A stretch of 32,000 nucleotides of DNA from Clostridia bacterium (GTDB taxonomy: Bacteria; Bacillota; Clostridia; UMGS1883). Of this stretch, positions 17,302 through 32,000 are shown in pieces. Position numbers and translations under genes: made by a program. Position 1 is the stretch's first letter. Each line of letters starts with the position of its first letter. The DNA is taken from assembly GCA_017505525.1 (NCBI GenBank), contig JAFVPB010000009.1, forward strand, positions 20,765 to 52,764, read 5' to 3'. Below the pieces are notes generated by a model. That model made no database searches and had not been told where the DNA came from. It saw nothing but the letters and a program-made list of their open reading frames with translations.

Positions 17302-17351
17302 CTCCTTTTTTATATTATATGTTAATTTTAATTATATTTTATAATAGACAT

Positions 17352-17662: not shown

Positions 17663-17698
17663 TAAAAAGTATTTTTTTATAAAAGGACGAATAAAATT

Positions 17699-19549: not shown

Positions 19550-19555
19550 TTTATT

Positions 19556-20329
19556 ATGAAAAAAATATTGTTATCTATCATATGCTTTATAATTGCATTC
19601 AGCTTAGTTTCATGCAAAAAAAACATCGCGGAAACTTCTTCCCCTCCTGTTCTTATTGCTCATTCAGGCGGTCAAATATATGGATATAGATTAACCAATT
19701 CAAAAGAAGCTCTTGACCTTGCATATAAAAATGATTTCAGGCATATTGAGCTTGATTTTGAGATAACAAGCGATGGAGAATATGTTCTGTTACACGATTG
19801 GGAAAGCATGGCACAAAGAATGCTTGGCAAAAGCGGTATTTTAACAAAAGATGAATTTTTAAATTCCAAAGTTTTCAGAGATTTAACGCTTCTTGATTTT
19901 GATGGACTATTAAAATGGCTGAAAAAACATAACGATTGCTACATAATAACCGATGTAAAATGCGATAATATTCCATTTATTGATAAGATTGCTTCCTTGG
20001 AAAAACTTAAAGATAATTTTATTATACAAGCATATAGCTACGATGAATATTACTATGCTAAAAGCAAAGGTATTAAAAATGTCATCCTAACCCTTTACCG
20101 ATTTCTTCCTGTAGAATCAGAGGTTATTGAATTTGCAAAAGAAAACAATCCATGGGCTATAACTCTTTCTGAGTTTTATGCAACAGAATCTCTTCTAACT
20201 GCGCTTAAAGAAAACGGCACTCCCACCTATATGCATACTGTTAATGAATTATATATTTATGAAAAATATAGAGATTTAGGATTACACGGAATATATACAA
20301 ATTATTTTGAAGCAAACCATTGGGAATAA
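19556..20329 (+). CDS. Glycerophosphodiester phosphodiesterase (GDPD/PI-PLC-like) family lipoprotein, divergent.
   Basis: Full ORF of 257 aa. Lipoprotein signal MKKILLSIICFIIAFSLVS|C. AGGTGA RBS lies 7 nt upstream, and the gene starts 6 nt after the previous stop. GDPD-like core: VLIAHSGG...NSKEAL...FRHIELDFEITSDGEYVLLHDW. It has HSG where HRG is usual. Confidence 0.65.
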   Translation: MKKILLSIICFIIAFSLVSCKKNIAETSSPPVLIAHSGGQIYGYRLTNSKEALDLAYKNDFRHIELDFEITSDGEYVLLHDWESMAQRMLGKSGILTKDEFLNSKVFRDLTLLDFDGLLKWLKKHNDCYIITDVKCDNIPFIDKIASLEKLKDNFIIQAYSYDEYYYAKSKGIKNVILTLYRFLPVESEVIEFAKENNPWAITLSEFYATESLLTALKENGTPTYMHTVNELYIYEKYRDLGLHGIYTNYFEANHWE

Positions 20330-20330
20330 A

Positions 20331-20371
20331 AACAAGGCTGTAAAGTACTTTCATTTTACATCCTTGTTTTT
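20331..20371 (+). terminator. Intrinsic terminator after the GDPD-like gene.
   Basis: AACAAGG-c-TGTAAA ... TTTACA-t-CCTTGTT forms a composite stem (20331-20368), followed by TTT. It begins directly after the stop at 20329. Confidence 0.7.
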
Positions 20372-20433
20372 AGCAAAGGATAATGATTTTTGTAATATTT
20401 TTAATGGTTTCGTATATTTTGTGTAAATTTATG

Positions 20434-20462
20434 TTGTATTATAGCATATTTTGTGGTAAAAT
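20434..20462 (+). promoter_or_regulatory. Candidate promoter (TTGTAT, 17 nt, TG-n-TAAAAT extended -10) for the acyltransferase-like/ligase pair.
   Basis: TTGTAT at 20434-20439, TGG at 20454-20456, TAAAAT at 20457-20462. GAGGTGG RBS lies 4-5 nt before ATG 20502. Confidence 0.4.
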
Positions 20463-20501
20463 ATGAATAGTTTGTAAATAAATATACTATAGAGGTGGAT
20501 T

Positions 20502-21368
20502 ATGAAAAAGTTTGGCGACAGAAAAGATGGTGTACTCTTAAAAGACATTGATTCAATGCACTTTATTACCCCTATTATATTTCCGAACAGGGCTGATAAC
20601 GAAGCATTCATTTCAGAAAGAATTGATTTGACTAATATTAACAAATATTTAGAACAAAAAAATGCAGAAAATCCGGAATATAAATATAATTTATTTCAGA
20701 TAATTGTAACTGCTCTTTTAAAAACAATTACTTTAAGGCCACAAATGAATCGTTTTATAGCAAATAAGAATATATATCATAAAAACGAAATTTCTGCAGC
20801 TTTTACTATTAAAAAAGTTTTTTCCGATACAAGCGAGGAAGCCCTTGCTTTTATACATTCAAAAGATACGGATAATATCGAAACAGTACATAACGATATA
20901 TTCCGTCAGGTATCTCACGTTAGAAAAAGCGTATCCTCTAAGGATAAAACATCCGATGTTATGGATTATTTAAATAAATTACCAAGGTTTATTTCAAAAA
21001 GCGTGGTATCGCTTATGTATTTACTTGATAAACATGGGATGGTTCCATCTTCACTTATAGCAACAGATCCTTATCATGCATCAGTTTTGATTTCAAATCT
21101 TGGCTCAATTAAATTAAAATCCGGATATCATCATTTGTCTAATTGGGGCACAACGTCTGTTTTTGTTGTTATCGGAGAAAAGAAAATCAGGCCATTTTTT
21201 AACGAAGATGGTACATACACAATGAAAGACAGCGTTGACATAGGATTAACGGTTGACGAAAGAATTGCCGATGGATATTATTTTTCGAAAACTATCCGTT
21301 TATTAAAAAAGCTACTTGAAAATCCCGAATTGCTTGAAAAATCTTTTAAAGAAGAGGTTGACTATTAA
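20502..21368 (+). CDS. Stand-alone 2-oxoacid-dehydrogenase E2 / CAT-fold acyltransferase catalytic-domain-like protein (no lipoyl or subunit-binding domains).
   Basis: Full ORF of 288 aa. The C-terminal half matches the E2 catalytic-domain pattern: VLISNLGSIKL...SVFVVIGE...IGLTVDERIADGYYFSKTIRLLKKLLENPELL. Compare the canonical ..SNLG......aIL.vG......lslS.DHRviDGa..a.F...l...le.P..ll. Confidence 0.65.
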   Translation: MKKFGDRKDGVLLKDIDSMHFITPIIFPNRADNEAFISERIDLTNINKYLEQKNAENPEYKYNLFQIIVTALLKTITLRPQMNRFIANKNIYHKNEISAAFTIKKVFSDTSEEALAFIHSKDTDNIETVHNDIFRQVSHVRKSVSSKDKTSDVMDYLNKLPRFISKSVVSLMYLLDKHGMVPSSLIATDPYHASVLISNLGSIKLKSGYHHLSNWGTTSVFVVIGEKKIRPFFNEDGTYTMKDSVDIGLTVDERIADGYYFSKTIRLLKKLLENPELLEKSFKEEVDY

Positions 21369-23104
21369 TGGAAATTTTAGCTAAAACTCCATGGAAAAAT
21401 AGTTGGGGCGATATTCCTTTAACTCTTGATTATTTTAAAGGAACCATGTTTGAAGCAGTTGAAAAAATTGCCGAAAAGTATCCTAAAAATGTTGCTTTTG
21501 ACTTTATGGGTGCACCCACTACATATTCTAAACTTGTAGAAGAAGTAAAGAAGTGTGCTAAATCGCTTAAAACAATAGGTGTTCGGGAAGGAGACAAGGT
21601 TACAATTGCTCTCCCCAACTGCCCACAGGCTATATACGTTTTTTATGCTGTTAATCTGGTTGGCGGTGTAGCTAATATGATACATCCGCTTTCAGCTGAA
21701 AACGAAATTGAATTTTATTTAAATGAATCTGAAAGCGTTACAGCTATAACACTTGATCAGTTTTACAACAAATTCGAAAGTGTACGACACAAAACTAAAG
21801 TTTTGAACATTGTAATCGCAAGCATAAAAGATGAACTTTCTAAGCCTATAAAAGCCGGTTATATGCTTACAGAAGGTAGAAAAATCAAAAAAATTCCTTC
21901 AGATGCGCCTATAATCAGATGGCAGGAATTTATAAAGCTTGGAAAGCATTGTTTTTATAATTATGCCGTTAAAAGAAATGCGGATGATCCTGCGGTTATT
22001 CTCTACTCAGGAGGGACAACGGGAACCTCAAAGGGCATTGTGCTTACTAACTACAATTTTAATGCTCTTGGTCAGCAGATAATTGCAACTAACCCAATGT
22101 TTTCTCCCGGAGATAAAATGCTTGCTGCTATGCCACTTTTCCACGGCTTTGGTTTAGGCGTTTGTGTTCACTCGATGCTTTCAAACGGTGGAAGATGTGT
22201 TCTTGTTCCTCGCTTCACCCCAAAAAGCTATGGAAAACTTATTACAAAACATAAGTGCAACTTTATTGCTGGTGTCCCAACGCTTTACGAAGCTCTTTTA
22301 CGTCTTCCTTCTATGGAAAAAGCTGATTTAAGTGCTCTTAAAGGTGTTTTCTCAGGTGGAGATTCGCTTTCTTTTGAACTTAAAAAGAAACTTGATAAAT
22401 TTCTTTATGATCATCACTGTATGATACAAGTGCGTGAAGGATATGGAACAACTGAAACTGTTACTGCTTGTTGTCTCACTCCCCCACACATATATAAGAA
22501 AGGAAGCATCGGCATACCTCTTCCCGATACATACATAAAAATTGTAGAACCAAATACAGACATTGAACTTCCTTATGGCGAAGAGGGAGAAATTCTTCTT
22601 GCAGGACCAACAGTTATGAAAGAATATATGAATCATCCTGAAGAAACTGCCGTAACACTCAGAAATCATGCTGACGGATTAAGGTGGGTTTATACTGGGG
22701 ATTTGGGTTATATGGACAATGAAGGATTTATCTATTTTAAAGGTAGAGCTAAAAGAATGATTATTACTTCCGGTTATAATGTATACCCTGCTCAGCTTGA
22801 GAATATTCTTGATTCTCATGAATTTGTGCAAATGAGTTGTATTATAGGTATTCCTGATCCATATAAAATCAAAAAAGTTAAGGCTTATGTGAAACTAGCC
22901 CAAGGCGTAAAGGCAAATGACGATACTAAAGAGGCTTTAATGGAGCATTGCAAAAAAAATGTAGCAAAATACGCTATGCCGTGCGATATTGAATTCAGAG
23001 ATGAATTACCTAAAACCTTAGTAGGCAAAGTTGCGTATCGTGAACTTGAAGAAGCTGAACTTAAAAAATATGAAGAATCTCATAAAGAAACTGTATTATT
23101 ATAA
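21368..23104 (+). CDS. AMP-binding acyl-CoA/acyl-AMP ligase (long-chain fatty-acid--CoA ligase-like).
   Basis: Full ORF of 578 aa. The start overlaps the previous stop (TAATG, 21366-21370). ANL-superfamily motifs are present: ILYSGGTTGTSKGIVLTN, REGYGTTE, YTGDLGYMDNEGFIYFKGRAKRMI, LPKTLVGKV. Confidence 0.85.
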   Translation: MEILAKTPWKNSWGDIPLTLDYFKGTMFEAVEKIAEKYPKNVAFDFMGAPTTYSKLVEEVKKCAKSLKTIGVREGDKVTIALPNCPQAIYVFYAVNLVGGVANMIHPLSAENEIEFYLNESESVTAITLDQFYNKFESVRHKTKVLNIVIASIKDELSKPIKAGYMLTEGRKIKKIPSDAPIIRWQEFIKLGKHCFYNYAVKRNADDPAVILYSGGTTGTSKGIVLTNYNFNALGQQIIATNPMFSPGDKMLAAMPLFHGFGLGVCVHSMLSNGGRCVLVPRFTPKSYGKLITKHKCNFIAGVPTLYEALLRLPSMEKADLSALKGVFSGGDSLSFELKKKLDKFLYDHHCMIQVREGYGTTETVTACCLTPPHIYKKGSIGIPLPDTYIKIVEPNTDIELPYGEEGEILLAGPTVMKEYMNHPEETAVTLRNHADGLRWVYTGDLGYMDNEGFIYFKGRAKRMIITSGYNVYPAQLENILDSHEFVQMSCIIGIPDPYKIKKVKAYVKLAQGVKANDDTKEALMEHCKKNVAKYAMPCDIEFRDELPKTLVGKVAYRELEEAELKKYEESHKETVLL

Positions 23105-23183: not shown

Positions 23184-24788
23184 TTAAAGTTCTGGTCCGG
23201 CACTTACAAGTGCTTTACCTGCATCGTTACCTGTATACTTATCAAAGTTCTTAACGAAGCGAGTTGCAAGATCTTTTGCTTTTTCTTCCCATTCAGCTGC
23301 ATTTTCATATGTGTCGCGAGGATCTAAGATTCCTGAATCAACACCTGGAAGTGCTGTGGGAACTGCAAGATTGAAGAAAGGAATTTCCTTTGTTTCTGCC
23401 TTTAAGATAGAACCATCTAAAATAGCATCGATAATTCCTCTTGTATCTTTAATAGAGATACGCTTACCTGTACCGTTCCAGCCTGTGTTTACAAGATATG
23501 CCTTAGCACCGCTCTTTTCCATCTTTTTAACAAGTTCTTCAGCATACTTTGTAGGATGAAGCTCTAAGAATGCCTGACCGAAGCAAGCAGAGAATGTTGG
23601 TGTAGGTTCTGTAATTCCGCGCTCTGTTCCTGCAAGCTTTGATGTGAAGCCTGAAAGGAAATAGTACTGTGCCTGTTCAGGTGTAAGAATTGAAACAGGA
23701 GGAAGCACTCCGAAAGCATCTGCTGAAAGGAAGATAACGTTCTTTGCATCGGGAGCTGCAGATACAGGACGAACAATCTTTTCAATGTGATCGATCGGGT
23801 AAGAAACACGTGTGTTTTCTGTTACTGAATCGTCAGCAAAATCTAAAACTCCGTTTTCATCAACTGTAACGTTTTCTAAAAGAGCGTTACGCTTAATAGC
23901 ATTGAAAATATCAGGTTCTGATTCCTTATCGAGGTTAATAACCTTCGCATAGCAGCCGCCTTCAAAGTTGAATACGCCGTTATCGTCCCAGCCATGTTCG
24001 TCGTCGCCGATTAAAAGACGCTTAGGATCTGTTGAAAGAGTTGTTTTACCTGTTCCTGAAAGACCGAAGAAAAGAGCTGTGTTCTTTCCTTCCATATCTG
24101 TGTTTGCACTACAGTGCATTGAAGCCATTCCGTTAAGAGGCAAGAAGTAGTTCATCATTGAGAACATACCCTTTTTCATTTCGCCGCCGTACCAGGTGTT
24201 TAAGATAACCTGTTCACGTGAAGTGATGTTGAACACTGCAGCTGTTTCAGAGTTAAGACCTAATTCCTTGTAGTTTTCAACCTTTGCTTTTGATGCGTTA
24301 TAGCAAACAAAATCAGGTTCAAACTTTTCAAGTTCTTCAGCACTGGGGTTGATAAACATATTCTTAACGAAGTGAGCCTGCCAAGCAACTTCCATAATGA
24401 ATCTGATCGACATTCTTGAATCTTCGTTAGCGCCGCAGAAAACGTCTACAACATAGAGTTTCTTATCTGAAAGCTGCTTAACAGCTAAATCTTTAAGAAC
24501 CTTCCATGTTTCTTCGCTGCAGGGGTGGTTGTCGTTTTTGAATTCGTCTGATGTCCACCAAACAGTGTCTTTTGAGTTTTCATCCATAACGATGAACTTG
24601 TCTTTGGGAGAACGACCTGTGTAAATACCTGTCATTACGTTTACAGCACCAAGTTCAGTTTCCTGACCTCTTTCAAAGCCTTCTAAAGAAGGATCTGTTT
24701 CCGCTGCAAATAATTCTTCGTATGAAGGATTGTGAATAACCTCCTTCACACCTGTGATTCCGTACTTTGTTAAATCAATAGATTTCAT
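23184..24788 (-). CDS. pckA: Phosphoenolpyruvate carboxykinase (ATP).
   Basis: Full ORF of 534 aa. The N-terminus is typical of ATP-PEPCK (LTKYGI...[11 protein letters not shown]). Kinase-1a P-loop [13 protein letters not shown] is present, followed by LIGDDEHGW. The length is also typical of the family. Confidence 0.9.
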
Positions 24789-24817: not shown

Positions 24818-26050
24818 TTAAAATAAAATTATTATAAACTGAGATGCAAATACTACTGCAACAAGTGCAATAGGATATGTAGCTGCATAAGCTGCTGCCA
24901 CATCTTCTGTGCCTGCCACGTGAATAAGAGTTCCCAATGCAGGCGTACTTGTCATACCGCCTGTGATTGAACCCAGGGTGTTAAGCACATTGATTTTAAG
25001 AATATATTTTGCAAAAATAAAACCAATAATCATAGGAAGAGTTGTCATTATCACACCATAGATGAAATAATCTATTTTAAACTCCTGAACAAATCTTGCA
25101 CCGCCGGAGATACCCGCACCTGCAAGGAAAAGGACAAGACCGAGCTCTCTGAACACCTTAAGAGTTGGCGCAGGGGGCATAACATTAACTTTGCCGATTT
25201 TACCAAAATGACCAAAAGCAAGAGATGCAAGAAGGCATCCGCCTGTGGTGGTTAAAGAAAATGTTGTGCCGTTAAGGCCTTGTGAGGAAAGCGGAATTTT
25301 TACCATACCTATGAAAATTCCTATAAGTGCTGCAATCGCAAAAGGAGCAATACCGTAATCATCAAGTTGGATTAATTTGCCACCTGATTTTTCAGAGGCT
25401 GCAGCACTTTCTTTGGCAACAAGCTTTGCACGTTCTTCATCCATATTTACCTTTAATATTTTAGGCATAAGCTGAACAAATAATACAACACCTATAACGC
25501 CGAAAATGTATGCAATACCATAGCCTACGGAAACAAGCTGCTCCATTTCAGGGCTTGAAACTGATGCTTTAGCTGCTGAAAATGCAGGTGTGGAAGTAAG
25601 CGCACCGGCAAACAAGCCTGAAACAATTGCAGAAAGTCTTTCCATATCGGTTTCACCCATAAGCTTTCCTACAAACACACAACCAACCGCAACAAGCGCA
25701 CCTGATAATATAATAACCAATCCAAGCAACACATATGATGTGAAATTTTTCTTCATATTGCTGAAAAATTTGGGGCCTGCAATAAATCCAACCGCTGCGA
25801 CAAAAAGAACAAGGCCAAGGTTTTCAACAATTTTCAAAGCATTTGTTGTATAACCCGAAAGCTGAGCATCAAGGTCGTCATAAAACAAACATCCAAATAT
25901 AAGAGCAATTATAAACACTCCTGCAGAACCAAGTGATACACCCTTTATTGTTATTCTACCAAGTGCATATCCAACTGCTAAAATAGTAAAAATACAAAAC
26001 ATCAAAAATGTTATTCCCGTAATCGGGATAACTCCGCCAAACAAGCTCAT
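24818..26050 (-). CDS. AAEx-family (AspT/YidE/YbjL/SucE-type, Asp-Al_Ex duplication) transporter lacking the cytoplasmic RCK_C/TrkA_C insert; possible C4-dicarboxylate (succinate/aspartate) exporter or exchanger.
   Basis: Full ORF of 410 aa, hydrophobic throughout. The N-terminal half starts ...[31 protein letters not shown], the signature of the Asp-Al_Ex repeat. A second, related half follows a short charged loop ([22 protein letters not shown]). GGAGGT RBS is present. The gene starts 17 nt after the flavoprotein stop. Confidence 0.6.
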
Positions 26051-26067: not shown

Positions 26068-27666
26068 TTATCTTTTTCTAGTGTAATCAGGAAGAAGCTT
26101 TGGAGAAACCGTTTCTGTTTCAATACCTGCATCAGCTATTTCCTTTTCAAACTTTTCAATATGTGAAAGTAAAAGCTTACCCACTTTAACATTTTTAGCC
26201 TTGGCAGCGGCATTCTGCCCTGCACTTCTGCCAAATACGATAATATCAAGAAGGCTATTTCCCATAAGTCTGTTCTTGCCGTGAATTCCTCCAACTGCTT
26301 CGCCTGCAACAAAGAGGTTTTCAACGTTTGTTGTCATACAGTCTGGTGTAATATCGAGTCCGCCGTTCTGATAATGAAGCGTGGGATAAACGAGAATAGG
26401 CTCCTTACGGATATCTATGCCATATTTCTCAAACATTCTCCACATAGCGGGAATTCTCTTCATAATAGTTCCCTCACCGCCGATTTTTTCAATCATAGGC
26501 GTATCAAGCCATACTCCCTTTCCGCTTCCTGTATCCACACCGTTATCTCTTTCTGAGCATTCGCGGATTATAGAAGCTGCCGCAACGTCACGTGTTTCAA
26601 GCGGATGCATAAATACTTCGCCGTTTTCGTTTACAAGCTTTGCACCAAGTGAACGAACTTTTTCAGTAACAAGAGCACCGAAAATCTGCTCGGGATAAGC
26701 AACGCCTGTGGGATGATACTGAAGTGTTTCAGCATAAAGGAGCTTTGCACCTGCGCGGTATCCGAGAACAAGTCCATCGGCAGTTGCGCCATAGTGGTTT
26801 GATGTTGGGAATCCCTGATAGTGCATACGACCTGCGCCGCCAGTTGCAATAATAACTGTTTTAGCCTTTGCAACAAGAAGCTCTTTTGTTTCCATATTCA
26901 TAAGCACAGCACCTGCTGCGTTGCAATTTTCATCAAGAATAAGCTCTATTGCAGATGTAAAATCAACAACGGGAATGTTGCGGTTTAACACTTCGTCGCG
27001 AAGTGTTCTCATAATTTCGGCACCTGAATAGTCCTTTGCAGCGTGCATTCTCTTTCTTGAAGTACCGCCACCATGCGTTGTTACCATTGTGCCGTCGGCT
27101 TCCTTATCAAACTCAACGCCTAAATTGCTGAGCCATAAAATAGCCTCGGGGGCATCGCATACAAGCTTTGATAAAAGCTCTTTTTTAGCGGCAAAATGTC
27201 CGCCACCGAAAGCATCTACAAAATGGATTGCGGGCGAATCGTTTGGCTTATCTGCCGCCTGAATACCACCCTCTGCCATCATTGTGTTGGCATCGCCCAT
27301 TCTGAGCTTTGTAACAATCATAACTTTTGCGCCTGCCTCATCAGCTTCAATTGCTGCTGATGTGCCTGCACCACCACCGCCGATAATTAACACATCGGTT
27401 TCATAATCGGGATTTGTAAGGTCAACACTATCTTTTGTGATACGGCTGTGTGCCTGAAGAATTTCGGCAAGCTCTGTGGGCACCTTATCTCCCTTATTGG
27501 GGCCAATTTTTAAAACATCAAATTCTTCCTGCTTGTAGTCCGGATGAAAAGTTGCAAGCAAATCTTCTTTCTGCTTTGCTGTCATACGTTCCGGTTCTAA
27601 TGCAATGTTTTTTTCTCTTGCTGCTTCAACTGCTGCAATAGATTTCTGAAATTTTTCCGAATACAT
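26068..27666 (-). CDS. FAD-binding flavoprotein of the succinate dehydrogenase/fumarate reductase (FrdA/SdhA/TfrA) family with a ~90-aa N-terminal extension.
   Basis: Full ORF of 532 aa with an AGGAGG RBS. Motifs: DVLIIGGGGAGTSAAIEA (dinucleotide fold, begins at residue ~91), MMAEGGIQ, LQYHPTG...LVTEKVRS, and HGKNRLMGNSLLDIIVFGRSAG. Confidence 0.75.
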   Translation of the reverse strand: MYSEKFQKSIAAVEAAREKNIALEPERMTAKQKEDLLATFHPDYKQEEFDVLKIGPNKGDKVPTELAEILQAHSRITKDSVDLTNPDYETDVLIIGGGGAGTSAAIEADEAGAKVMIVTKLRMGDANTMMAEGGIQAADKPNDSPAIHFVDAFGGGHFAAKKELLSKLVCDAPEAILWLSNLGVEFDKEADGTMVTTHGGGTSRKRMHAAKDYSGAEIMRTLRDEVLNRNIPVVDFTSAIELILDENCNAAGAVLMNMETKELLVAKAKTVIIATGGAGRMHYQGFPTSNHYGATADGLVLGYRAGAKLLYAETLQYHPTGVAYPEQIFGALVTEKVRSLGAKLVNENGEVFMHPLETRDVAAASIIRECSERDNGVDTGSGKGVWLDTPMIEKIGGEGTIMKRIPAMWRMFEKYGIDIRKEPILVYPTLHYQNGGLDITPDCMTTNVENLFVAGEAVGGIHGKNRLMGNSLLDIIVFGRSAGQNAAAKAKNVKVGKLLLSHIEKFEKEIADAGIETETVSPKLLPDYTRKR

Positions 27667-27679
27667 ATCCTTTTCCTCC

Positions 27680-28354
27680 TTACTTTTCTATTTCTCTTGT
27701 ATTATAAAGCTCTTTCATTTCCTCGATAGGCTTTTGCATAAGAGCTTCTATAAGTTCCTTAAAGTCGCCGTCTTTGATTTCCTTAACACGGTCTTCAAGA
27801 TGACCACATCCCGGAGCTAAGTATTTGCCGTTGATTCTTCTTGCAAGCATTGCAACCTGAGGATGAGAAATTCCTGCAGGACATCTTGAAGAACATACTC
27901 CACACATTACGCAGTCGAATGATTCTTCAGCACATTTTTCAAAATCACCGCGCTGAGCATATGCAATATACTGCATAACGTTAAGCCCCTGAGTGCAAGC
28001 CTTTGTGCAAGCATTACAGCCGATACAAGCGTAAATTTCAGGATAAAGCTGCATCATAACAGATTCGTTTGTTGGAATCTTTTCAATGTCGTATCCTTCT
28101 TTAACAAGCGGGAAGAAAGGAAGAGTTGCAATATACATATTATCCTCAACCTTTGTCTGGCAAGCAAGGCAAGCCTTAAGCTCCTTATCCCCTTTTATGC
28201 GGTAAATAGTTGCACATGCACCACAAAAACCGTTACGGCAACCGCATCCGCGCACAAGCTGATATCCCGCATATTCCATAGCTGTCATAATCGTTAAATT
28301 TTCGGGCACTTCATACTTTTTTCCGAAAAGATAAATACTAACTAATTTTTCCAT
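27680..28354 (-). CDS. SdhB/FrdB-like iron-sulfur subunit (N-terminal 2Fe-2S ferredoxin-like domain plus two 4-Cys cluster motifs).
   Basis: Full ORF of 224 aa. The GCGCRNGFCGACATIY...CLAC stretch resembles the SdhB CxxxxCGxC...C 2Fe-2S motif. Two further motifs are CIGCNACTKACT and CVMCGVCSSRCP. AAGGAG RBS is present. The gene starts 12 nt after the upstream stop, and the flavoprotein gene starts 13 nt after its own stop. Confidence 0.7.
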   Translation of the reverse strand: MEKLVSIYLFGKKYEVPENLTIMTAMEYAGYQLVRGCGCRNGFCGACATIYRIKGDKELKACLACQTKVEDNMYIATLPFFPLVKEGYDIEKIPTNESVMMQLYPEIYACIGCNACTKACTQGLNVMQYIAYAQRGDFEKCAEESFDCVMCGVCSSRCPAGISHPQVAMLARRINGKYLAPGCGHLEDRVKEIKDGDFKELIEALMQKPIEEMKELYNTREIEK

Positions 28355-28366
28355 GTTAACTCTCCT

Positions 28367-29200
28367 TTAATACTCATCCGGAAGCTCATCAAGCTCGTCG
28401 CATCTGAATACCGGACCGTCTTTACACACGTATTTCGCGCCAACATTGCATCTTCCGCATTTACCAACACCGCACTTCATTCTGAGTTCAAGTGTTGTGT
28501 AAATCTGCGTTTTATCAAACCCAAGTTCGCAAAGTCCCTCAAGTGTGAACTTAATCATAATCGGTGGTCCGCAAAGAACTGCCGTTTTATTTGTATCGAA
28601 GCCAAGCTCTTTTACATAGCTTGGAACAAATCCAACGTGGCCGTCCCATCCATCCTGCGGATTATCAATCGTTAAATGAACGTTTACACCTGCATCAGTT
28701 GACCATTCCTCAATAATTTCATTGTAGTCAAGCAAATCATCTTTACTTCTTGAGCCATAAACAATATCTATATCGCCGTAGCGGTCGCGATAATGTCTGC
28801 AATAGTTGATAACCGAGCGAAGAGGTGCTAAGCCTACACCGCCTGCAATAAACAGAAGGTTCTTGCCCGCAAACACATCATCCACAGGGAAAGGATTACC
28901 ATAAGGTCCCCTGATTGTTATCTGCTGACCAACCTCTGCCTGATGAAGCCAGTCGGTTACGCATCCGCACTTTTTAATGGAAAACTCCATATACTCTTCA
29001 TTCGTAGGAGAAGAAGTTATAGAAAACATTGCTTCGCCAACTCCCGGAACGGAAAGCATAGCACACTGCCCCGGGCGGTGGTCAAATGCTTTTTTTCCAT
29101 CAGGAGTTACAACCCTGAAGGTTTTAATATCAGGTGTGTCGATACGCACATCAGTTATAACGCCTACTTTTGGAATCAAAGTTTCTTCTCTGTTACTCAC
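28367..29200 (-). CDS. FAD/NAD(P)-binding oxidoreductase with a C-terminal 2Fe-2S (FlxA / AsrB / sulfhydrogenase-gamma / PyrK-like).
   Basis: ORF of 277 aa. The start codon is GTG (29200-29198), overlapping the upstream TGA (GTGA). It is the only start available after the in-frame stop. Motifs: flavin-binding barrel HRPGQCAMLS...FSITSSP, NAD(P) fold LLFIAGGVGLAPLRS, and C-terminal KCGVGKCGRCNVGAKYVCKDGPVF. Confidence 0.75.
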   Translation of the reverse strand: MSNREETLIPKVGVITDVRIDTPDIKTFRVVTPDGKKAFDHRPGQCAMLSVPGVGEAMFSITSSPTNEEYMEFSIKKCGCVTDWLHQAEVGQQITIRGPYGNPFPVDDVFAGKNLLFIAGGVGLAPLRSVINYCRHYRDRYGDIDIVYGSRSKDDLLDYNEIIEEWSTDAGVNVHLTIDNPQDGWDGHVGFVPSYVKELGFDTNKTAVLCGPPIMIKFTLEGLCELGFDKTQIYTTLELRMKCGVGKCGRCNVGAKYVCKDGPVFRCDELDELPDEY

Positions 29201-30222
29201 GCATCAACATCTCCAATCTTTTTCATTACTTTAACAATATTCATAGAAATAGGACACTTACTAAGGCATCTTCCGCAACCCACACAGCTGAACATACCAT
29301 CATTGTTTTCGGGATAGTAAACAAGCTTGTGCATAAATCTCTGACGGAAACGTTCCTTTTGAGTAATTCGGTTATTTCCGTGAGCCATTTTTGTAAATTC
29401 AGAATACATACACGAATCCCAGCATCTGAATCTTATAACGCCCTTGCCTGTGTTGAAATCTTTAATATCATAACATTGGCAGGTGGGACATACAAAAGTA
29501 CAGGTACCACATCCAAGGCAGCTTCCCGATAACTCTTCCCAAACGGGATTGTTAAAGAATTCTTCTGTTTTTCCGCCGCCAAAAGCATCTGTTTTTAAGT
29601 CTTTAAGCGGAAGTTTAGCCATAATTGCAGAAATCTTTTCTTTCTGCTCTGTAACTACTGTTTCGTCACATTCCTCTGTGTATGCAGAAAGTTTTTCTAA
29701 AAGCGCCTCTCCCTTAGAGGTATTAGCCTTAAAGAAGATTTCATCTTCTGTTTTCCAGGTTGTAACATCGCCCTCAGGCTCTTCAGGGGAAATTCCAAAG
29801 GTTTTACAAAAGCATGTTTCCGAAGGCTTTGAGCAAGCTGTCGATACGATTACTCCCTTTTCACGCCTTGAAGCATAGTAGCTATCAACAGGTTCTGAAA
29901 GAAACACTCTGTCTAAAACTTCAAAGCTCTTTACGTCGCAGGCACGAACACCGAAGATAACAAAATCTTCTGTTTCGCATCGATTATCGATAACTTCGAT
30001 GTTTTTACCCTCTGTTTTAAATTCCATCAGATTTTCCATCTGCGGCAAGAAGAAATCCTTAGGGCTTCTTACAGTATTTAAAGAACTGCTCCATTCAATT
30101 CCATTTTCCCACTGCTTATAAACGGCACTGCCATCCTTATCGTCAGCTGGAATGTAAAGCTTCGCAGTTTTTGCGATTTCTTCAAAAACTGAATTTATTT
30201 TATCAAGAGAACATTTAAGCAT
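29197..30222 (-). CDS. 4Fe-4S polyferredoxin-like protein (FlxB / AsrA / sulfhydrogenase-beta-like).
   Basis: ORF 29197..30240. I prefer ATG 30222 (MLKCSLDK...) because AGGAGGG lies 6 nt upstream; this leaves an 8-nt overlap with the previous gene. Motifs: GVRACD, CFC, GSCLGCGTCTFVCPTCQCYDIKDF and SCVGCGRCLSKCP. Confidence 0.75.
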   Translation of the reverse strand: MLKCSLDKINSVFEEIAKTAKLYIPADDKDGSAVYKQWENGIEWSSSLNTVRSPKDFFLPQMENLMEFKTEGKNIEVIDNRCETEDFVIFGVRACDVKSFEVLDRVFLSEPVDSYYASRREKGVIVSTACSKPSETCFCKTFGISPEEPEGDVTTWKTEDEIFFKANTSKGEALLEKLSAYTEECDETVVTEQKEKISAIMAKLPLKDLKTDAFGGGKTEEFFNNPVWEELSGSCLGCGTCTFVCPTCQCYDIKDFNTGKGVIRFRCWDSCMYSEFTKMAHGNNRITQKERFRQRFMHKLVYYPENNDGMFSCVGCGRCLSKCPISMNIVKVMKKIGDVDA

Positions 30223-31213
30223 CAATATCCCTCCTGTCAAACACTTCGCCAGGCTCTAAATCCTCGGTAGTGTAGTCTACAAGAGGTGCTCTTGAGCCAA
30301 CCTCTGCCCCCGCCTGATATTCGCCGTAGAATTCGTTAATATCCTTTATGAACTTACGGTTAAGAAGATGAAGCGGAATATTCTGTGGGCAAACTCTTGA
30401 ACATTCTCCGCAGTCTGTACATCTTCCTGCAACGTGATATGCTCTTATAATATGGAACATTTTTTCTTCAAAGCTATTAGCAGGTGCTTTATTTTCAACG
30501 CCCGATTGAGGGTTGTCGAACACGCACTTTTCACAAGTACAAGCAGGACAAGCATCGCGGCAAGCATTACAACGGATGCAGCGTGAAAGTTCGTTCTGCC
30601 AGAAAGCAAATCTTTCATCGGGTGTCATTGCTTCGATTTTTGCCACTTCGTCAAATCTTTTCGACTCAATAACTTCGCCCTCGTCGCCCATAAGTTCGTC
30701 GTAAGCAACGTGCTTTTTACTCTTACAATTTATGCAGCGCTCTAAAAGAACATCCTTAAATGCAACCTTAACAGGAGCATCTTCGTAAATCGTTGTAACA
30801 AGAAGATTTTCGCCATCCTCTTTAATTTCGCTGATACCTTCGCCAGTTACGGCTTTTAATTTTATAACATCAACCATTCCCTCGCAAGGAATACCTACTG
30901 CATAAACCTTTTCGCGTTCAAAACGATGCTCGGTTAAAAGCTGATTAAAGCTATACGTATCACAGGGTTTTAAGAAAACAAGGATTTTTCCATCGAATCT
31001 GTCGGTTTTAGAAACAAGATATTTTGAAAAATTCACTCCGCAAAAATCGTTCCACACAAAGTTTTCTTTTAAATCTTCTTCTGTTTTGAACATTTTTGGA
31101 GTTACATCGTAGCCGAATTCACCCCTGCTCCAACCGAGAACAGCATTAACAGTGCCATCAGAAAGCAGAGAAGCTGCTTTTTCTATCAACTGATTTTGTG
31201 TTATCTTTTGCAT
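30215..31213 (-). CDS. Second 4Fe-4S dicluster protein (FlxC-like).
   Basis: Full ORF of 332 aa. GGAGG lies 7 nt upstream of ATG 31213. There is a 13-nt overlap with mvhD. Motifs: RCIRCNACRDACPACTCEKCVFD and GRCTDCGECSRVCPQNIP, plus the extra Cys pairs LKPCD, IPCEG and CINC. Confidence 0.7.
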   Translation of the reverse strand: MQKITQNQLIEKAASLLSDGTVNAVLGWSRGEFGYDVTPKMFKTEEDLKENFVWNDFCGVNFSKYLVSKTDRFDGKILVFLKPCDTYSFNQLLTEHRFEREKVYAVGIPCEGMVDVIKLKAVTGEGISEIKEDGENLLVTTIYEDAPVKVAFKDVLLERCINCKSKKHVAYDELMGDEGEVIESKRFDEVAKIEAMTPDERFAFWQNELSRCIRCNACRDACPACTCEKCVFDNPQSGVENKAPANSFEEKMFHIIRAYHVAGRCTDCGECSRVCPQNIPLHLLNRKFIKDINEFYGEYQAGAEVGSRAPLVDYTTEDLEPGEVFDRRDIDA

Positions 31214-31635
31214 CGCAGATCCTCCAATCTCTTATTTTCTCCGAGTGCTGTTACCTTTTCAACAAAATCATTCATTGTAGCGGCAAACTTTGCACCCTCT
31301 GCCGCAGAAACCCATTCCAAACGGGTACGTTCTCTTTCGATACCAAGGAAATCAAGCATTGAAAAGAGAGCTGCCATTCTTCTGCGTGTGTAGTAGTTTC
31401 CTGATGTGTAGTGGCAGTCGCCGGGATGGCAACCGCATATGATAACTCCGTCGGCCCCCCTTTGGAATGCACGAAGAACAAACATAGGATTAACACGGCA
31501 TGAGCAAGGAACTCTTATAATTTTCACATCCGCCGGATAATTAAGACGGTTGTTTCCTGCAAGGTCTGCACCGGCATAAGAACACCAGTTGCAGCAGAAT
31601 GCAACAATTAAAGGCTTATGTTCATTTACTTGCAT
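31201..31635 (-). CDS. mvhD: MvhD/FlxD-type hydrogenase iron-sulfur (delta) subunit-like protein.
   Basis: Full ORF of 144 aa. Sequence IVAFCCNWCSYAGADLAG...IIRVPCSCRVNP...RAFQRGADGVIICGCHPGDCHY matches the MvhD/FlpD pattern. GGAGGTGGA RBS is present. There is a 10-nt overlap with hdrA. Confidence 0.85.
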   Translation of the reverse strand: MQVNEHKPLIVAFCCNWCSYAGADLAGNNRLNYPADVKIIRVPCSCRVNPMFVLRAFQRGADGVIICGCHPGDCHYTSGNYYTRRRMAALFSMLDFLGIERERTRLEWVSAAEGAKFAATMNDFVEKVTALGENKRLEDLRCKR

Positions 31636-32000
31636 ATTGCGTCCACCTCCGCCATAATTTGATTACTTGCAAATCCATTTAAATCCATAGCACCTGACGG
31701 ACAAGCAACTGTACAAGCACCACAACCCTGACAAACTGCAGGATTTACTTTGGCAACTCTTCTTATTTTAGTTGTTCTGTCGGGCATACGGAATTCTTTA
31801 TCTTCATAAGTGATAGCACCATACGGACAAACCCTTTCACAGGAAGAGCATCCGTTACACATAAGCTCGTTTGAATGAGCAACACACGGGTTACCTGTTA
31901 ACTTATCTTTTGCAAGAAGACCAATAACCTTAGATGCCGCTGCACCTGCCTGAGAAACAGTTTCGGGAATATCCTTCGGGCCCTGGCAAGCACCCGAAAG
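31626..32000 (-). CDS. hdrA: C-terminal fragment of an HdrA-like (heterodisulfide reductase subunit A family) flavo-iron-sulfur protein; continues beyond the right edge.
   Basis: The track ORF 31626..31862 has no upstream stop. Manual translation stays open to 32000: LSGACQGPKDIPETVSQAGAAASKVIGLLAKDKLTGNPCVAHSNELMCNGCSSCERVCPYGAITYEDKEF...CQGCGACTVACPSGAM. GxCQGPKDIP followed by a 2x CxxCxxCxxxCP ferredoxin domain is the typical HdrA/QmoA-type C-terminus. Confidence 0.75.
   Translation of the reverse strand, partial: LSGACQGPKDIPETVSQAGAAASKVIGLLAKDKLTGNPCVAHSNELMCNGCSSCERVCPYGAITYEDKEFRMPDRTTKIRRVAKVNPAVCQGCGACTVACPSGAMDLNGFASNQIMAEVDAICK

What the first reader, a model, noticed from the sequence alone, without database searches (positions are those of the whole stretch)
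26068..32000. HdrA-MvhD-FlxCBA-type electron-bifurcation module coupled in one operon to a soluble FrdAB-like reductase, with no membrane anchor in the window
SEEN: seven consecutive minus-strand genes are nearly fused. hdrA/mvhD overlap by 10 nt, mvhD/flxC-like by 13 nt, flxC-like/flxB-like by 8 nt, and flxB-like/flxA-like by 4 nt (GTGA). Gaps of 12 and 13 nt then lead to an SdhB/FrdB-like gene and an FrdA/SdhA-like gene. Motifs are listed in the features. No FrdC/D- or SdhC/D/E-like membrane anchor and no HdrB/C-like CCG-domain gene occurs downstream. ESTABLISHED: HdrA is the bifurcating flavoprotein of MvhADG-HdrABC. FlxABCD-HdrABC of Desulfovibrio vulgaris is an NADH-linked Hdr complex built from exactly these FlxA (FAD/NAD/2Fe-2S), FlxB/C (polyferredoxin) and FlxD (MvhD) parts. 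Methanogen TfrAB is a quinone-independent thiol:fumarate reductase. Fumarate/succinate (about +30 mV) is a suitable high-potential acceptor for bifurcation from NADH (about -320 mV) to ferredoxin. INFERENCE: this may be a cytoplasmic, quinone-independent, NADH-dependent fumarate (or related enoate) reductase that co-reduces ferredoxin. I know of no biochemically characterised bacterial complex of this kind. CAVEATS: genes upstream of hdrA lie outside the window, so hdrBC could still be there. The substrate of the Frd-like pair is not proven.
Basis: partly seen in the sequence, partly recalled or inferred. Interest (0 to 1): 0.85.

Follow-up and report, generated by a model that had tools for sequence, protein, structure and literature searches.

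The report
Hdr-Flx-coupled soluble fumarate reductase operon
This gut Clostridia operon joins a membrane-free fumarate reductase to a complete NADH-oxidising Flx-Hdr electron-splitting module inside a full PEP-to-succinate pathway; the design was already proposed for Pseudoclostridium thermosuccinogenes but has never been tested biochemically.

Summary
Seven tightly packed minus-strand genes encode the HdrA C-terminus, MvhD/FlxD, FlxC, FlxB, FlxA, an SdhB/FrdB homologue and an FrdA/SdhA-type flavoprotein.

hdrB and hdrC lie directly upstream of hdrA, preceded by class II fumarase and a malate dehydrogenase. An AspT/YidE-family permease and pckA follow frdA. The unit is therefore a 13-gene PEP-to-succinate cluster containing a complete FlxABCD-HdrABC.

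The flavoprotein keeps every fumarate-binding and catalytic residue. It lacks the covalent-FAD histidine, the NadB glutamate and the C-terminal helical domain. The nine-gene core is colinear in 53 of 53 species-level genomes with enough contig.

The best reading is NADH-driven bifurcation at HdrA, sending electrons to ferredoxin and, through HdrC, HdrB and FrdB, to fumarate.

This idea is not new. The same "succinate operon" and hypothesis were published for P. thermosuccinogenes (2019 preprint, 2020 paper). I found no biochemical proof.

What is new here is the breadth (at least 578 species) and the evidence that the FrdAB pair is modular. It also occurs with Hdr but no Flx, and with a NuoF-like partner.

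The parts
31626..32000 (-). 3' end of hdrA, encoding the C-terminal 124 aa (ferredoxin-like 2x[4Fe-4S] domain) of a 664-aa HdrA
   Evidence: NCBIfam HdrA2/HdrA hits. The full gene on contig L001 aligns end to end with M. wolfeii HdrA 5odc_A, E 8e-205.
31201..31635 (-). mvhD / flxD (144 aa; MvhD-type [2Fe-2S] electron-transfer subunit)
   Evidence: Pfam FlpD, 187 bits, full length. Overlaps hdrA by 10 nt.
30215..31213 (-). flxC-like iron-sulfur protein (332 aa, 16 Cys, 2x[4Fe-4S] motifs)
   Evidence: Pfam Fer4_8/Fer4_9 hits and a weak AsrA hit. Cys map. Overlaps mvhD by 13 nt.
29197..30222 (-). flxB-like iron-sulfur protein (341 aa), homologous to sulfhydrogenase beta and AsrA
   Evidence: NCBIfam ShyB 181 bits, HdrB-unrelated HydB 168 bits, AsrA 148 bits. 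PDB match to P. furiosus sulfhydrogenase I beta 9nez_B, E 6e-46.
28367..29200 (-). flxA-like NAD(P)H-binding flavoprotein with a C-terminal [2Fe-2S] site (277 aa); the predicted NADH entry point
   Evidence: Pfam FAD_binding_6 + NAD_binding_1 + DHODB_Fe-S_bind. NCBIfam hydrogenase gamma / AsrB family. GTG start overlaps the flxB stop (GTGA).
27680..28354 (-). frdB-like iron-sulfur subunit (224 aa): [2Fe-2S] plus two four-Cys [4Fe-4S] motifs
   Evidence: hhalign against E. coli FrdB/SdhB gives 97.2% probability over both domains. Family-invariant Cys residues: C39/C44/C47/C65, C110/113/116/120 and C148/151/154/158.
26068..27666 (-). frdA-like flavoprotein (532 aa): FAD and capping domains, an 88-aa N-terminal extension and no C-terminal helical domain
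   Evidence: Pfam FAD_binding_2, 232 bits. Best NCBIfam hit TfrA, 352 bits. H318, T334, E335, R338, R359, H431 and R466 conserved; Asn127 replaces the covalent-FAD His. AF2 model pLDDT 94; best fold match E. coli FrdA 1kf6_A.
24818..26050 (-). AspT/YidE/YbjL (Asp-Al_Ex) family permease (410 aa); putative succinate exporter
   Evidence: Pfam Asp-Al_Ex x2. 17-nt gap after frdA. Directly downstream of frdA in 60 of 74 related loci.
23184..24788 (-). pckA, ATP-dependent PEP carboxykinase (534 aa); CO2-fixing entry into the succinate branch
   Evidence: NCBIfam PRK09344.1-1, 974 bits, and TIGR00224, 823 bits, both above cut-off. 29-nt gap after the permease. This position is conserved in only 8 of 62 related loci.

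Best explanation
The window holds the downstream two thirds of a roughly 14-kb operon: mdh-fumC-hdrB-hdrC-hdrA-mvhD(flxD)-flxC-flxB-flxA-frdB-frdA-permease-pckA. It comes from an uncultured Oscillospiraceae-type Clostridium of the ruminant gut.

The operon encodes the whole reductive branch from PEP to exported succinate:
- PckA carboxylates PEP to oxaloacetate.
- An LDH-family malate dehydrogenase (Arg at the specificity position) makes malate.
- Class II fumarase makes fumarate.
- FrdAB reduces fumarate to succinate.

FrdAB is soluble and has no quinone-binding anchor. I infer that it docks on a complete FlxABCD-HdrABC complex, which works as follows.
1. NADH is oxidised at FlxA (FAD, [2Fe-2S]).
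2. Electrons pass through FlxB/FlxC and MvhD/FlxD to the bifurcating FAD of HdrA.
3. One electron goes uphill through HdrA's ferredoxin-like clusters to ferredoxin.
4. The other goes downhill through HdrC, the two non-cubane clusters of HdrB and the three clusters of FrdB to the non-covalent FAD of FrdA, and then to fumarate.

Overall: 2 NADH + fumarate + Fd(ox) gives 2 NAD+ + succinate + Fd(red). Reduced ferredoxin can then drive H2 formation or an Rnf/Ech ion pump. This would recover the roughly 350 mV that a plain soluble NADH:fumarate reductase wastes.

**Shown:** gene content, order, cofactor motifs, active-site conservation, pathway context and conservation across genomes.
**Inferred:** physical association of FrdAB with HdrB, direct (thiol-free) electron transfer, NADH specificity, and bifurcation to ferredoxin.
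For: **Gene identities and junctions:**

**Extended contig:** mdh, fumC, hdrB and hdrC lie upstream; the permease and pckA lie downstream.

**Hdr subunits**
- HdrA is full length against the solved bifurcating HdrA 5odc_A, E 8e-205.
- HdrB has both CCG motifs intact, with 10 Cys, and matches methanogen HdrB at 1e-38.

**Flx subunits**
- Subunit sizes match D. vulgaris FlxA, FlxB, FlxCD and HdrA closely; HdrB (263 aa, ~29 vs 35.1 kDa) and HdrC (129 aa, ~15 vs 21.0 kDa) are smaller.

**FrdA**
- All dicarboxylate-binding and catalytic residues are conserved.
- The covalent-FAD His is replaced by Asn, and the NadB Glu by Gly.
- The AF2 model (pLDDT 94) best matches E. coli FrdA.

**FrdB**
- It is homologous to FrdB/SdhB over both domains.
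- Its third cluster has four Cys, as I recall for TfrB and type E SdhB (recalled, not checked here).

**Rosetta-stone argument**
- The TfrB model is matched by FrdB (positions 19-93), HdrC (134-220) and HdrB (262-487).
- HdrB scores equally against the SdhE CCG subunit of methylmenaquinol:fumarate reductase (154.6 bits).
- CCG proteins are therefore known direct partners of Frd iron-sulfur subunits.

**Conservation**
- The core is colinear in 53 of 53 genomes. fumC lies upstream in 44 of 50 and the permease downstream in 60 of 74.
- An independent variant reads korDABC-hdrA-mvhD-hdrC-hdrB-frdB-frdA, with no Flx.

**Membrane association:** no transmembrane segments in any Hdr, Flx or Frd protein.

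**Literature:** the same operon and hypothesis are published for P. thermosuccinogenes. There the operon is co-regulated, and H2 suppresses succinate formation.
Against: - No biochemistry exists for any member.
- HdrB retains a complete disulfide-reducing site, so a thiol/disulfide intermediate is not excluded.
- FlxA's nucleotide preference (NADH or NADPH) was not determined.
- Whether the genome lacks menaquinone, or has Rnf, Ech or hydrogenases to use the reduced ferredoxin, could not be checked from one contig.
- Promoter and terminator scans were no better than chance, so 'one transcript' rests on spacing and conservation only.
- More distant relatives of the flavoprotein (40-47% identity) occur without Hdr. 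The association is therefore clade-specific.
Confidence: 0.62

Rival explanations
1. Thiol-mediated two-step system modelled on methanogen Tfr plus Hdr. Flx-Hdr bifurcates NADH to ferredoxin and to a low-molecular-weight or protein disulfide at HdrB. The resulting thiols are re-oxidised by an FrdAB-HdrB unit (a split TfrAB) that reduces fumarate.
For: HdrB keeps both CCG motifs of the disulfide-reducing site. FrdB + HdrC + HdrB together tile the TfrB model. TfrA is the best-scoring model for the flavoprotein. D. vulgaris Flx-Hdr is thought to use the protein disulfide DsrC.
Against: No DsrC-like, thioredoxin-like or thiol-biosynthesis gene is present in the 13-gene cluster or in the flanking 10 kb. 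There is only one HdrB, which would have to both reduce and oxidise the same couple, with no net gain. FrdB itself has no CCG domain. As far as I recall, Clostridia do not make CoM/CoB (not checked here).
Confidence: 0.13
2. Non-bifurcating NADH:fumarate oxidoreductase. The Flx-Hdr iron-sulfur/flavin chain acts only as a wire from NADH to FrdAB, and no ferredoxin is reduced.
For: In marine Gammaproteobacteria the FrdAB-type pair is coupled directly to a NuoF-like NADH module with no HdrA. The pair can therefore work in a simple linear chain.
Against: A seven-subunit module with a full-length, highly conserved HdrA would be a very costly wire. HdrA has median 91% identity across relatives and is full length against 5odc, including the C-terminal ferredoxin-like domain. 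As I recall, the HdrA complexes characterised so far are bifurcating or confurcating enzymes (for the D. vulgaris Flx-Hdr proposal). In P. thermosuccinogenes, H2 suppresses succinate formation, as expected if ferredoxin reduction is obligatory.
Confidence: 0.12
3. The flavoprotein/iron-sulfur pair reduces or oxidises a substrate other than fumarate, such as another enoate or L-aspartate. The TCA-branch neighbours would then be coincidental.
For: The protein fails every NCBIfam equivalog cut-off (best is TfrA, 352 against 718). It has an unusual architecture, with an N-terminal extension and no C-terminal domain. Remote relatives sit in unrelated contexts. The permease family is named for aspartate:alanine exchange.
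Against: All fumarate/succinate-binding and catalytic residues are conserved, and the NadB-specific Glu is absent. fumC lies directly upstream in 44 of 50 genomes and mdh in 42 of 50. A second, independent Hdr-linked variant lies next to a 2-oxoglutarate-type oxidoreductase. The fumC gene scores about 195 bits higher as fumarase than as aspartase.
Confidence: 0.06
4. Two independent enzymes that merely share an operon. Flx-Hdr would serve an unrelated acceptor, and FrdAB would take electrons from free ferredoxin or another donor.
For: No direct evidence of physical interaction was obtainable; no multimer modelling was available.
Against: The order is invariant and the junctions overlapping or nearly abutting in 53 of 53 genomes. 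The frdBA pair again follows hdrCB directly in the Flx-less variant. The operon contains no other candidate high-potential acceptor for bifurcation.
Confidence: 0.07

Closest known systems
'Succinate operon' of Pseudoclostridium thermosuccinogenes (Koendjbiharie & van Kranenburg 2019 preprint; Koendjbiharie et al. 2020, PMC7282089)
   Same: The composition and order match: fumarate hydratase, seven Flx-Hdr genes, two fumarate reductase genes, then a putative succinate transporter. The proposed function also matches: NADH-dependent fumarate reduction coupled to ferredoxin reduction.
   Different: The host is different: uncultured mesophilic gut Oscillospiraceae-type Clostridia rather than a thermophile. 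Here mdh precedes the operon and pckA follows it. Neither system has been characterised biochemically.
FlxABCD-HdrABC of Desulfovibrio vulgaris (Ramos et al. 2015)
   Same: The same seven parts with broadly matching sizes (FlxA, FlxB, FlxC+D and HdrA close; HdrB and HdrC smaller here): FlxA (NAD/FAD/[2Fe-2S]), FlxB and FlxC (sulfhydrogenase-beta/AsrA-like iron-sulfur proteins), FlxD (MvhD), and HdrA, HdrB and HdrC.
   Different: The gene order is hdrBCA-flxDCBA rather than flxABCD-hdrABC, and FlxC and FlxD are separate proteins. The proposed high-potential acceptor is FrdAB/fumarate encoded in the same operon, not DsrC. The physiological context is succinate fermentation, not ethanol or sulfate metabolism.
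Thiol:fumarate reductase TfrAB of methanogens
   Same: It is soluble and quinone-independent. TfrA is the best-scoring model for the flavoprotein. TfrB combines exactly the modules found here as FrdB, HdrC-like and HdrB. The FAD is non-covalent and the third cluster has four Cys.
   Different: TfrA scores 352 bits against a cut-off of 718. The C-terminal domain is missing and an N-terminal extension is added. The CCG domains are on a separate HdrB rather than fused. The electron donor is inferred to be NADH through Flx-Hdr, not CoM-SH/CoB-SH.
Type E succinate:quinone oxidoreductase / methylmenaquinol:fumarate reductase (SdhABE)
   Same: A CCG-domain subunit (SdhE) partners directly with the iron-sulfur subunit. 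HdrB here scores 154.6 bits on the SdhE model, equal to its HdrB score. I also recall that the third cluster of type E SdhB is [4Fe-4S]; this was not checked here.
   Different: There is no membrane association and no quinol donor. The CCG protein is part of an HdrABC unit.
Bifurcating enoyl reductases Bcd-EtfAB and caffeyl-CoA reductase CarCDE
   Same: The logic is the same: NADH reduces a high-potential C=C bond and ferredoxin at once, allowing 'respiration' through Rnf without quinones (established knowledge; review).
   Different: The protein families are unrelated (Etf/acyl-CoA dehydrogenase against Hdr/Flx/Frd). The substrate here is a free dicarboxylate, not a CoA thioester.

Membership tests
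FlxABCD-HdrABC NADH dehydrogenase/heterodisulfide reductase | FlxA with FAD-binding, NAD(P)-binding and [2Fe-2S] domains | tested here: met
   PF00970 + PF00175 + PF10418 in the 277-aa protein. Size matches the 31-kDa DVU2399.
FlxABCD-HdrABC NADH dehydrogenase/heterodisulfide reductase | FlxB and FlxC iron-sulfur proteins plus an MvhD-type FlxD | tested here: met
   FlxB matches ShyB/HydB/AsrA and 9nez_B at 6e-46. FlxC has 2x[4Fe-4S] motifs. MvhD hits PF02662 at 187 bits.
FlxABCD-HdrABC NADH dehydrogenase/heterodisulfide reductase | Full-length HdrA, HdrB with two CCG motifs, and HdrC with two [4Fe-4S] motifs, all in the same cluster | tested here: met
   Found on contig L001 just outside the window. 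HdrA against 5odc_A gives 8e-205. HdrB Cys: 9/41/42/77/80 and 151/191/192/227/230. HdrC has 8 Cys.
FlxABCD-HdrABC NADH dehydrogenase/heterodisulfide reductase | NADH-dependent reduction of ferredoxin and of a disulfide acceptor (DsrC in Desulfovibrio) | not testable with these tools
   This is an activity and needs enzymology. No DsrC-like gene was seen in the 21.6-kb locus.
Complex II-type fumarate reductase / succinate dehydrogenase (FrdABCD, SdhABCD) | Flavoprotein with the conserved dicarboxylate site (FrdA H232, T244, E245, R287, H355, R390) | tested here: met
   H318, T334, E335, R359, H431 and R466 are aligned and invariant. The fold is closest to 1kf6_A.
Complex II-type fumarate reductase / succinate dehydrogenase (FrdABCD, SdhABCD) | Covalent 8-alpha-N3-histidyl FAD (FrdA His44) | tested here: not met
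   Asn127 occupies this position, as in the whole N-extension family.
Complex II-type fumarate reductase / succinate dehydrogenase (FrdABCD, SdhABCD) | C-terminal helical domain (Succ_DH_flav_C) | tested here: not met
   No PF02910 hit. Only 38 residues follow the FAD domain, against 126-183 in the E. coli enzymes.
Complex II-type fumarate reductase / succinate dehydrogenase (FrdABCD, SdhABCD) | Iron-sulfur subunit with [2Fe-2S], [4Fe-4S] and [3Fe-4S] clusters | tested here: inconclusive
   Homology across both domains is clear (hhalign 97.2%). The third motif, however, has four Cys (CVMCGVCSSRCP), which predicts a second [4Fe-4S] instead of a [3Fe-4S].
Complex II-type fumarate reductase / succinate dehydrogenase (FrdABCD, SdhABCD) | Membrane anchor subunit(s) and a quinone site | tested here: not met
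   There is no anchor gene in the 21.6-kb locus and no transmembrane segment in any Hdr, Flx or Frd protein.
Thiol:fumarate reductase TfrAB | TfrA equivalog (NF004900, cut-off 718 bits) and a TfrB with fused CCG domains | tested here: not met
   352 bits covering only model positions 6-427. FrdB is 224 aa without CCG; the CCG protein is a separate HdrB.
L-aspartate oxidase NadB | TIGR00551 cut-off (452.75 bits) and the NadB-specific Glu121 | tested here: not met
   272 bits. Gly lies at the Glu121 column: HGGGTS against REGGHS. NadB-type representatives fall outside the clade.
APS reductase AprA | Sequence similarity to AprA/PAPS-reductase alpha | tested here: not met
   The only related PDB hit is 8a8o_A at E 1e-6 (31 bits), against 1e-50 to 1e-63 for SdhA/FrdA.
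P. thermosuccinogenes-type 'succinate operon' (Flx-Hdr-linked fumarate reductase) | One operon with fumarase, seven Flx-Hdr genes, two frd genes and a putative succinate transporter | tested here: met
   L001 reads fumC, hdrB, hdrC, hdrA, mvhD, flxC, flxB, flxA, frdB, frdA, permease. This matches the published description CDQ83_RS03365-03315.
P. thermosuccinogenes-type 'succinate operon' (Flx-Hdr-linked fumarate reductase) | Sequence orthology of the Frd subunits to the P. thermosuccinogenes proteins | not tested
   Those sequences could not be retrieved. The single genome-contig scan returned only the 80 closest relatives, and the preprint is not held.

The most novel reading that the evidence does not exclude
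The FrdAB pair found here has three defining features: an N-terminal extension on the flavoprotein, no C-terminal domain, and non-covalent FAD with an all-[4Fe-4S]/[2Fe-2S] partner. It may define a separate class of soluble fumarate reductases that plug into interchangeable electron-input modules:
- Flx-HdrABC (this operon)
- HdrABC-MvhD without Flx, next to a 2-oxoglutarate:ferredoxin oxidoreductase (L085)
- a NuoF-like NADH module in marine Gammaproteobacteria (L087)
- a self-fused FrdB-FrdA (P0122)

In the Hdr-linked forms, HdrB's non-cubane clusters would pass electrons straight to FrdB with no disulfide substrate. That would make this the first 'thiol-free' use of the Hdr catalytic site, and a quinone-free fumarate respiration common in herbivore and human gut Clostridia.
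Probability: 0.45. Interest if true: 0.75.

Novelty: new member of a known kind. Interest (0 to 1): 0.55.

Why it matters
Succinate is a major intermediate of gut and rumen fermentation and a precursor of propionate. Textbook fumarate respiration needs menaquinone and a membrane-bound reductase, which I understand many Clostridia lack (general knowledge, not tested here).

If this operon works as inferred, it explains how a very large group of uncultured gut Clostridia makes succinate while still conserving energy. At least 578 species-level genomes carry close relatives. Energy would be conserved by turning the NADH-to-fumarate potential drop into reduced ferredoxin for H2 production or an Rnf pump. 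That bears on hydrogen and methane budgets in ruminants.

It would also add a new high-potential acceptor, a free dicarboxylate, to the short list of Hdr-based bifurcating systems. It would give a natural test of whether the HdrB site can act purely as an electron relay. The hypothesis is published but untested, so the value lies in showing how widespread and modular the system is and in pointing to tractable experiments.

Tried and rejected
**Hypotheses rejected**
1. NadB identity. NadB models score lower than TfrA/SdhA models. The Glu121 column is Gly. NadB-like representatives fall outside the clade.
2. AprA identity. There is no meaningful similarity.
3. Aspartase instead of fumarase for the upstream lyase. 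The fumC_II model scores 714 bits against 519 for aspartase.
4. Lactate dehydrogenase for the first gene. NCBIfam LDH models pass their cut-offs, but the specificity position is Arg (GMPRKAGQSR), which indicates malate dehydrogenase.

**Analyses that gave nothing or could not be run**
5. Promoter and terminator scans to define the transcript. Counts did not exceed the shuffled expectation.
6. Structure prediction of FrdB with a locus-derived alignment.
7. A first bootstrap tree with Biopython's calculator timed out. I redid it with a numpy distance routine. Deep nodes are weakly supported (27-34%).
8. Retrieving the 2019 preprint. It is not held.
9. Ten literature searches for a biochemical characterisation. 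None was found.
10. Sequence-level comparison with P. thermosuccinogenes or Ruminococcus champanellensis.

Full report
**Observation**

The ORF list and domain scans confirm seven consecutive minus-strand genes:
- 31626-32000: the last 124 codons of hdrA
- 31201-31635: mvhD (Pfam FlpD, 187 bits)
- 30215-31213: a 332-aa poly-[4Fe-4S] protein (FlxC-like)
- 29197-30222: a 341-aa homologue of sulfhydrogenase beta/AsrA (FlxB-like)
- 28367-29200: a 277-aa protein with FAD, NAD and [2Fe-2S] domains (FlxA-like)
- 27680-28354: a 224-aa [2Fe-2S] + 2x[4Fe-4S] protein
- 26068-27666: a 532-aa FAD_binding_2 flavoprotein

Each start is preceded by an AG-rich Shine-Dalgarno-like stretch. The 8-nt overlap assumes the ATG at 30222; a TTG at 30240 is also open. 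None of these proteins has a hydrophobic segment of transmembrane type.

**What lies around it**

An exact-protein look-up placed the window on a 107-kb ENA metagenome scaffold (L001). Upstream of hdrA, just beyond position 32000, lie four more genes.
- hdrC: 129 aa with two CxxCxxCxxxC motifs.
- hdrB: 263 aa with both CCG motifs complete (C9, C41C42, C77, C80 and C151, C191C192, C227, C230).
- A class II fumarase: TIGR00979, 714 bits, above cut-off.
- An LDH-family dehydrogenase whose specificity position is Arg (GMPRKAGQSR), so a malate dehydrogenase.

Downstream of frdA, inside the window, come two more genes.
- An Asp-Al_Ex (AspT/YidE/YbjL) family permease after a 17-nt gap.
- ATP-dependent PEP carboxykinase after a further 29 nt.

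The functional unit is therefore a 13-gene cluster that encodes every step from PEP to exported succinate. The electron module is a complete FlxABCD-HdrABC, not an HdrA-only fragment.

The subunit sizes of FlxA, FlxB, FlxC+D and HdrA match those of the D. vulgaris complex closely; HdrB and HdrC are smaller (~29 and ~15 kDa). In D. vulgaris, FlxA is 31 kDa, FlxB 39, FlxCD 54, HdrA 71, HdrB 35 and HdrC 21. HdrA aligns end to end with the structurally characterised bifurcating HdrA of M. wolfeii (5odc_A, E 8e-205). HdrB aligns with methanogen HdrB (1e-38). FlxB aligns with P. furiosus sulfhydrogenase I beta (6e-46).

**Is the flavoprotein a fumarate reductase?**

Among NCBIfam models the best hit is TfrA (352 bits), followed by SdhA/FrdA models (285, 279) and NadB (272). 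All are below their cut-offs, so the protein belongs to no curated equivalog.

I aligned it with E. coli FrdA, SdhA and NadB and with 32 representatives.
- Every dicarboxylate-binding or catalytic residue is conserved: FrdA H232, T244, E245, R248, R287, H355 and R390 correspond to H318, T334, E335, R338, R359, H431 and R466.
- The histidine that carries covalent FAD is Asn127.
- The NadB-specific Glu121 column is Gly (HGGGTS against REGGHS).
- The protein carries an 88-residue N-terminal extension.
- It lacks the C-terminal helical domain: 38 residues follow the FAD domain, against 126-183 in the E. coli enzymes.

An AlphaFold2 model is confident (pLDDT 94.1, pTM 0.93). Its best structural match is E. 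coli quinol:fumarate reductase FrdA (1kf6_A, E 2.6e-37, TM 0.72). NadB ranks 37th. The only APS/PAPS-reductase hit in the PDB is marginal (E 1e-6).

A neighbour-joining tree gives the following picture.
- The window protein groups with an Hdr-linked relative (98% bootstrap).
- Both fall inside a family that shares the N-terminal extension.
- That family is sister to TfrA and actinobacterial SdhA-like sequences.
- It is separate from E. coli FrdA/SdhA and from NadB.
- Deep nodes are weakly supported.

From what I recall of E. coli FrdA His44 mutants (not checked here), non-covalent FAD is compatible with fumarate reduction but not with efficient succinate oxidation. This fits the reductive direction implied by the neighbouring genes.

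**The small subunit**

Sequence scores against SdhB models are weak. Even so, a profile of the family aligns with E. coli FrdB/SdhB across both domains at 97.2% probability (E 3e-11). The family-invariant cysteines are listed below.
- [2Fe-2S]: C39, C44, C47, C65
- First [4Fe-4S]: C110, C113, C116, C120
- Second cluster: C148, C151, C154, C158

The last motif has four cysteines where FrdB/SdhB have three. This predicts a second [4Fe-4S] in place of the [3Fe-4S]. As I recall, TfrB and type E SdhB share this trait (not checked here).

**Link between Frd and Hdr**

Three observations argue that FrdAB is the high-potential arm of the Hdr complex rather than a mere neighbour.
1. The nine-gene core hdrB-hdrC-hdrA-mvhD-flxC-flxB-flxA-frdB-frdA is present, colinear and on one strand in 53 of 53 species-level genomes whose contig reaches far enough. 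fumC sits directly upstream in 44 of 50, mdh in 42 of 50, and the permease directly downstream in 60 of 74. pckA is there in only 8 of 62.
2. A 56%-identical relative lies in a different arrangement: korD-korA-korB-korG (2-oxoglutarate-type ferredoxin oxidoreductase), then hdrA-mvhD-hdrC-hdrB-frdB-frdA, with no Flx genes. The Hdr-Frd association therefore survives a change of donor module and again sits in a TCA context.
3. Methanogen TfrB is a natural fusion of these parts. FrdB matches TfrB positions 19-93, HdrC matches 134-220 and HdrB matches 262-487. HdrB also scores as well on the CCG subunit SdhE of methylmenaquinol:fumarate reductase (154.6 bits) as on the HdrB model (154.4 bits). CCG proteins are thus established direct partners of Frd iron-sulfur subunits.

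**Proposed mechanism**

NADH is oxidised at FlxA. Electrons travel through FlxB/FlxC and MvhD to the HdrA flavin, where they bifurcate.
- One electron reduces ferredoxin.
- The other runs through HdrC, HdrB and FrdB to the FrdA flavin and then to fumarate.

With E0' of about -320 mV for NADH, +30 mV for fumarate/succinate and about -450 mV for ferredoxin, the overall reaction is clearly exergonic. Reduced ferredoxin can feed hydrogenases or Rnf, giving a quinone-free equivalent of fumarate respiration. The logic parallels Bcd-Etf and caffeyl-CoA reductase.

- **Shown:** gene content, cofactor motifs, active-site conservation, pathway context and conservation across genomes.
- **Inferred:** docking of FrdAB on HdrB, thiol-free electron transfer, NADH specificity and ferredoxin reduction.

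The main rival is a Tfr-like thiol shuttle. It is not excluded, because HdrB's disulfide site is intact. It lacks any candidate thiol carrier in the locus.

**Prior knowledge**

The idea is not new. Koendjbiharie et al. (2020, PMC7282089) describe a P. thermosuccinogenes 'succinate operon'. It contains fumarate hydratase, a seven-gene Flx-Hdr complex, a two-gene fumarate reductase and a putative succinate transporter. [quoted passage not shown]

They report co-regulation of the operon. They also note that H2 abolishes succinate formation, as expected if ferredoxin reduction is obligatory. A 2024 preprint notes a STRING association of HdrA with Sdh/Frd and a FlxA-like protein in Ruminococcus champanellensis.

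Ten full-text searches found no biochemical or structural characterisation. No closer solved structure appears in the PDB copy. The claim of novelty does not.

**What this analysis adds**

Close relatives (at least 83% identity among the 80 kept) occur in at least 578 species-level genomes. They are almost all uncultured Clostridia from yak, sheep, goat, deer, buffalo, chicken and human guts. Record labels include Ructibacterium, Congzhengia, Acutalibacteraceae, Oscillospiraceae and Ca. Parachristensenella.

The FrdAB pair also appears to be a portable module.
- In marine Gammaproteobacteria it is followed, with 4-nt overlaps, by a NuoF-family NADH module (frdB-frdA-nuoF-like).
- In one MAG the two subunits are fused into a 727-aa protein.
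- In Prochlorococcus sp. MIT 1201 the pair stands alone.

More remote relatives (40-46% identity) sit in unrelated contexts, so function should not be transferred to them.

**Verdict**

It needs two amendments: HdrBC are present, and the hypothesis has been published before.

I classify this as a new member of a known but uncharacterised kind. Interest is moderate. The system is widespread and physiologically important, and the bifurcation hypothesis is directly testable, but a specialist aware of the P. thermosuccinogenes work would not be surprised.

Noticed in passing
L087:9366-12891 and L088 (marine Gammaproteobacteria MAG contigs): A three-gene cluster frdB-like (212 aa), frdA-like (545 aa, 47% identical to the window protein, same N-terminal extension) and a NuoF-family protein (418 aa, 386 bits). 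Consecutive genes overlap by 4 nt. It looks like a soluble, non-Hdr NADH:fumarate reductase. The contig also carries DsrE, rhodanese and cytochrome c genes.
   Followed up: partly
L085:811-9771 (Logan SRR24270839 contig): A Flx-less variant: four genes of a 2-oxoglutarate-type 2-oxoacid:ferredoxin oxidoreductase, then hdrA-mvhD-hdrC-hdrB-frdB-frdA. The electron donor for this Hdr-Frd unit is unknown.
   Followed up: partly
L086:5250-7433 (protein P0122): A 727-aa natural fusion of the FrdB-like and FrdA-like subunits (58% identity to the window flavoprotein). It stands alone next to polysaccharide-synthesis genes, with no Hdr or Flx genes on the 7.7-kb contig.
   Followed up: no
L089:10001-12357 (Prochlorococcus sp. 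MIT 1201 chromosome CP138947.1): A frdA-like/frdB-like pair (45% identity, same architecture) beside a GNAT acetyltransferase, in a region of many very short ORFs. A soluble Frd-type pair seems unexpected to me in Prochlorococcus. Its role is unexplained.
   Followed up: no
L096:6001-9497: A short (406 aa) sister-group flavoprotein with neither the N-terminal extension nor the C-terminal domain. It lies directly upstream of class I fumarase-like alpha and beta subunits and a ComA (phosphosulfolactate synthase) homologue, inside a polysaccharide-type cluster.
   Followed up: no
L001:483-1424 (first gene of the operon, outside the window): The dehydrogenase passes the NCBIfam L-lactate dehydrogenase cut-offs (343 against 339; 328 against 304). 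It nevertheless has Arg at the LDH Gln102 specificity position, so automatic annotation would probably misname a malate dehydrogenase.
   Followed up: partly
window 647-17301, minus strand: A run of very large ORFs (1271, 871, 1223, 408, 801 and 876 aa). Their domains are CBM_4_9, SLH, AIR9-type Ig, beta-helix/Pel9A-like and Cu_amine_oxidN1, which suggests a cell-surface polysaccharide-degrading apparatus. The 871-aa and 801-aa proteins have no Pfam match at all.
   Followed up: partly
window 17001-21400: G+C drops to 0.28-0.33, from about 0.40 on either side, and GC skew changes sign where the coding strand switches. The plus-strand genes here are a sulfatase-family protein (616 aa), a GDPD phosphodiesterase, a protein with a 2-oxoacid_dh acyltransferase catalytic domain (288 aa) and an acyl-CoA ligase (578 aa). 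The ligase's start overlaps the preceding stop.
   Followed up: no
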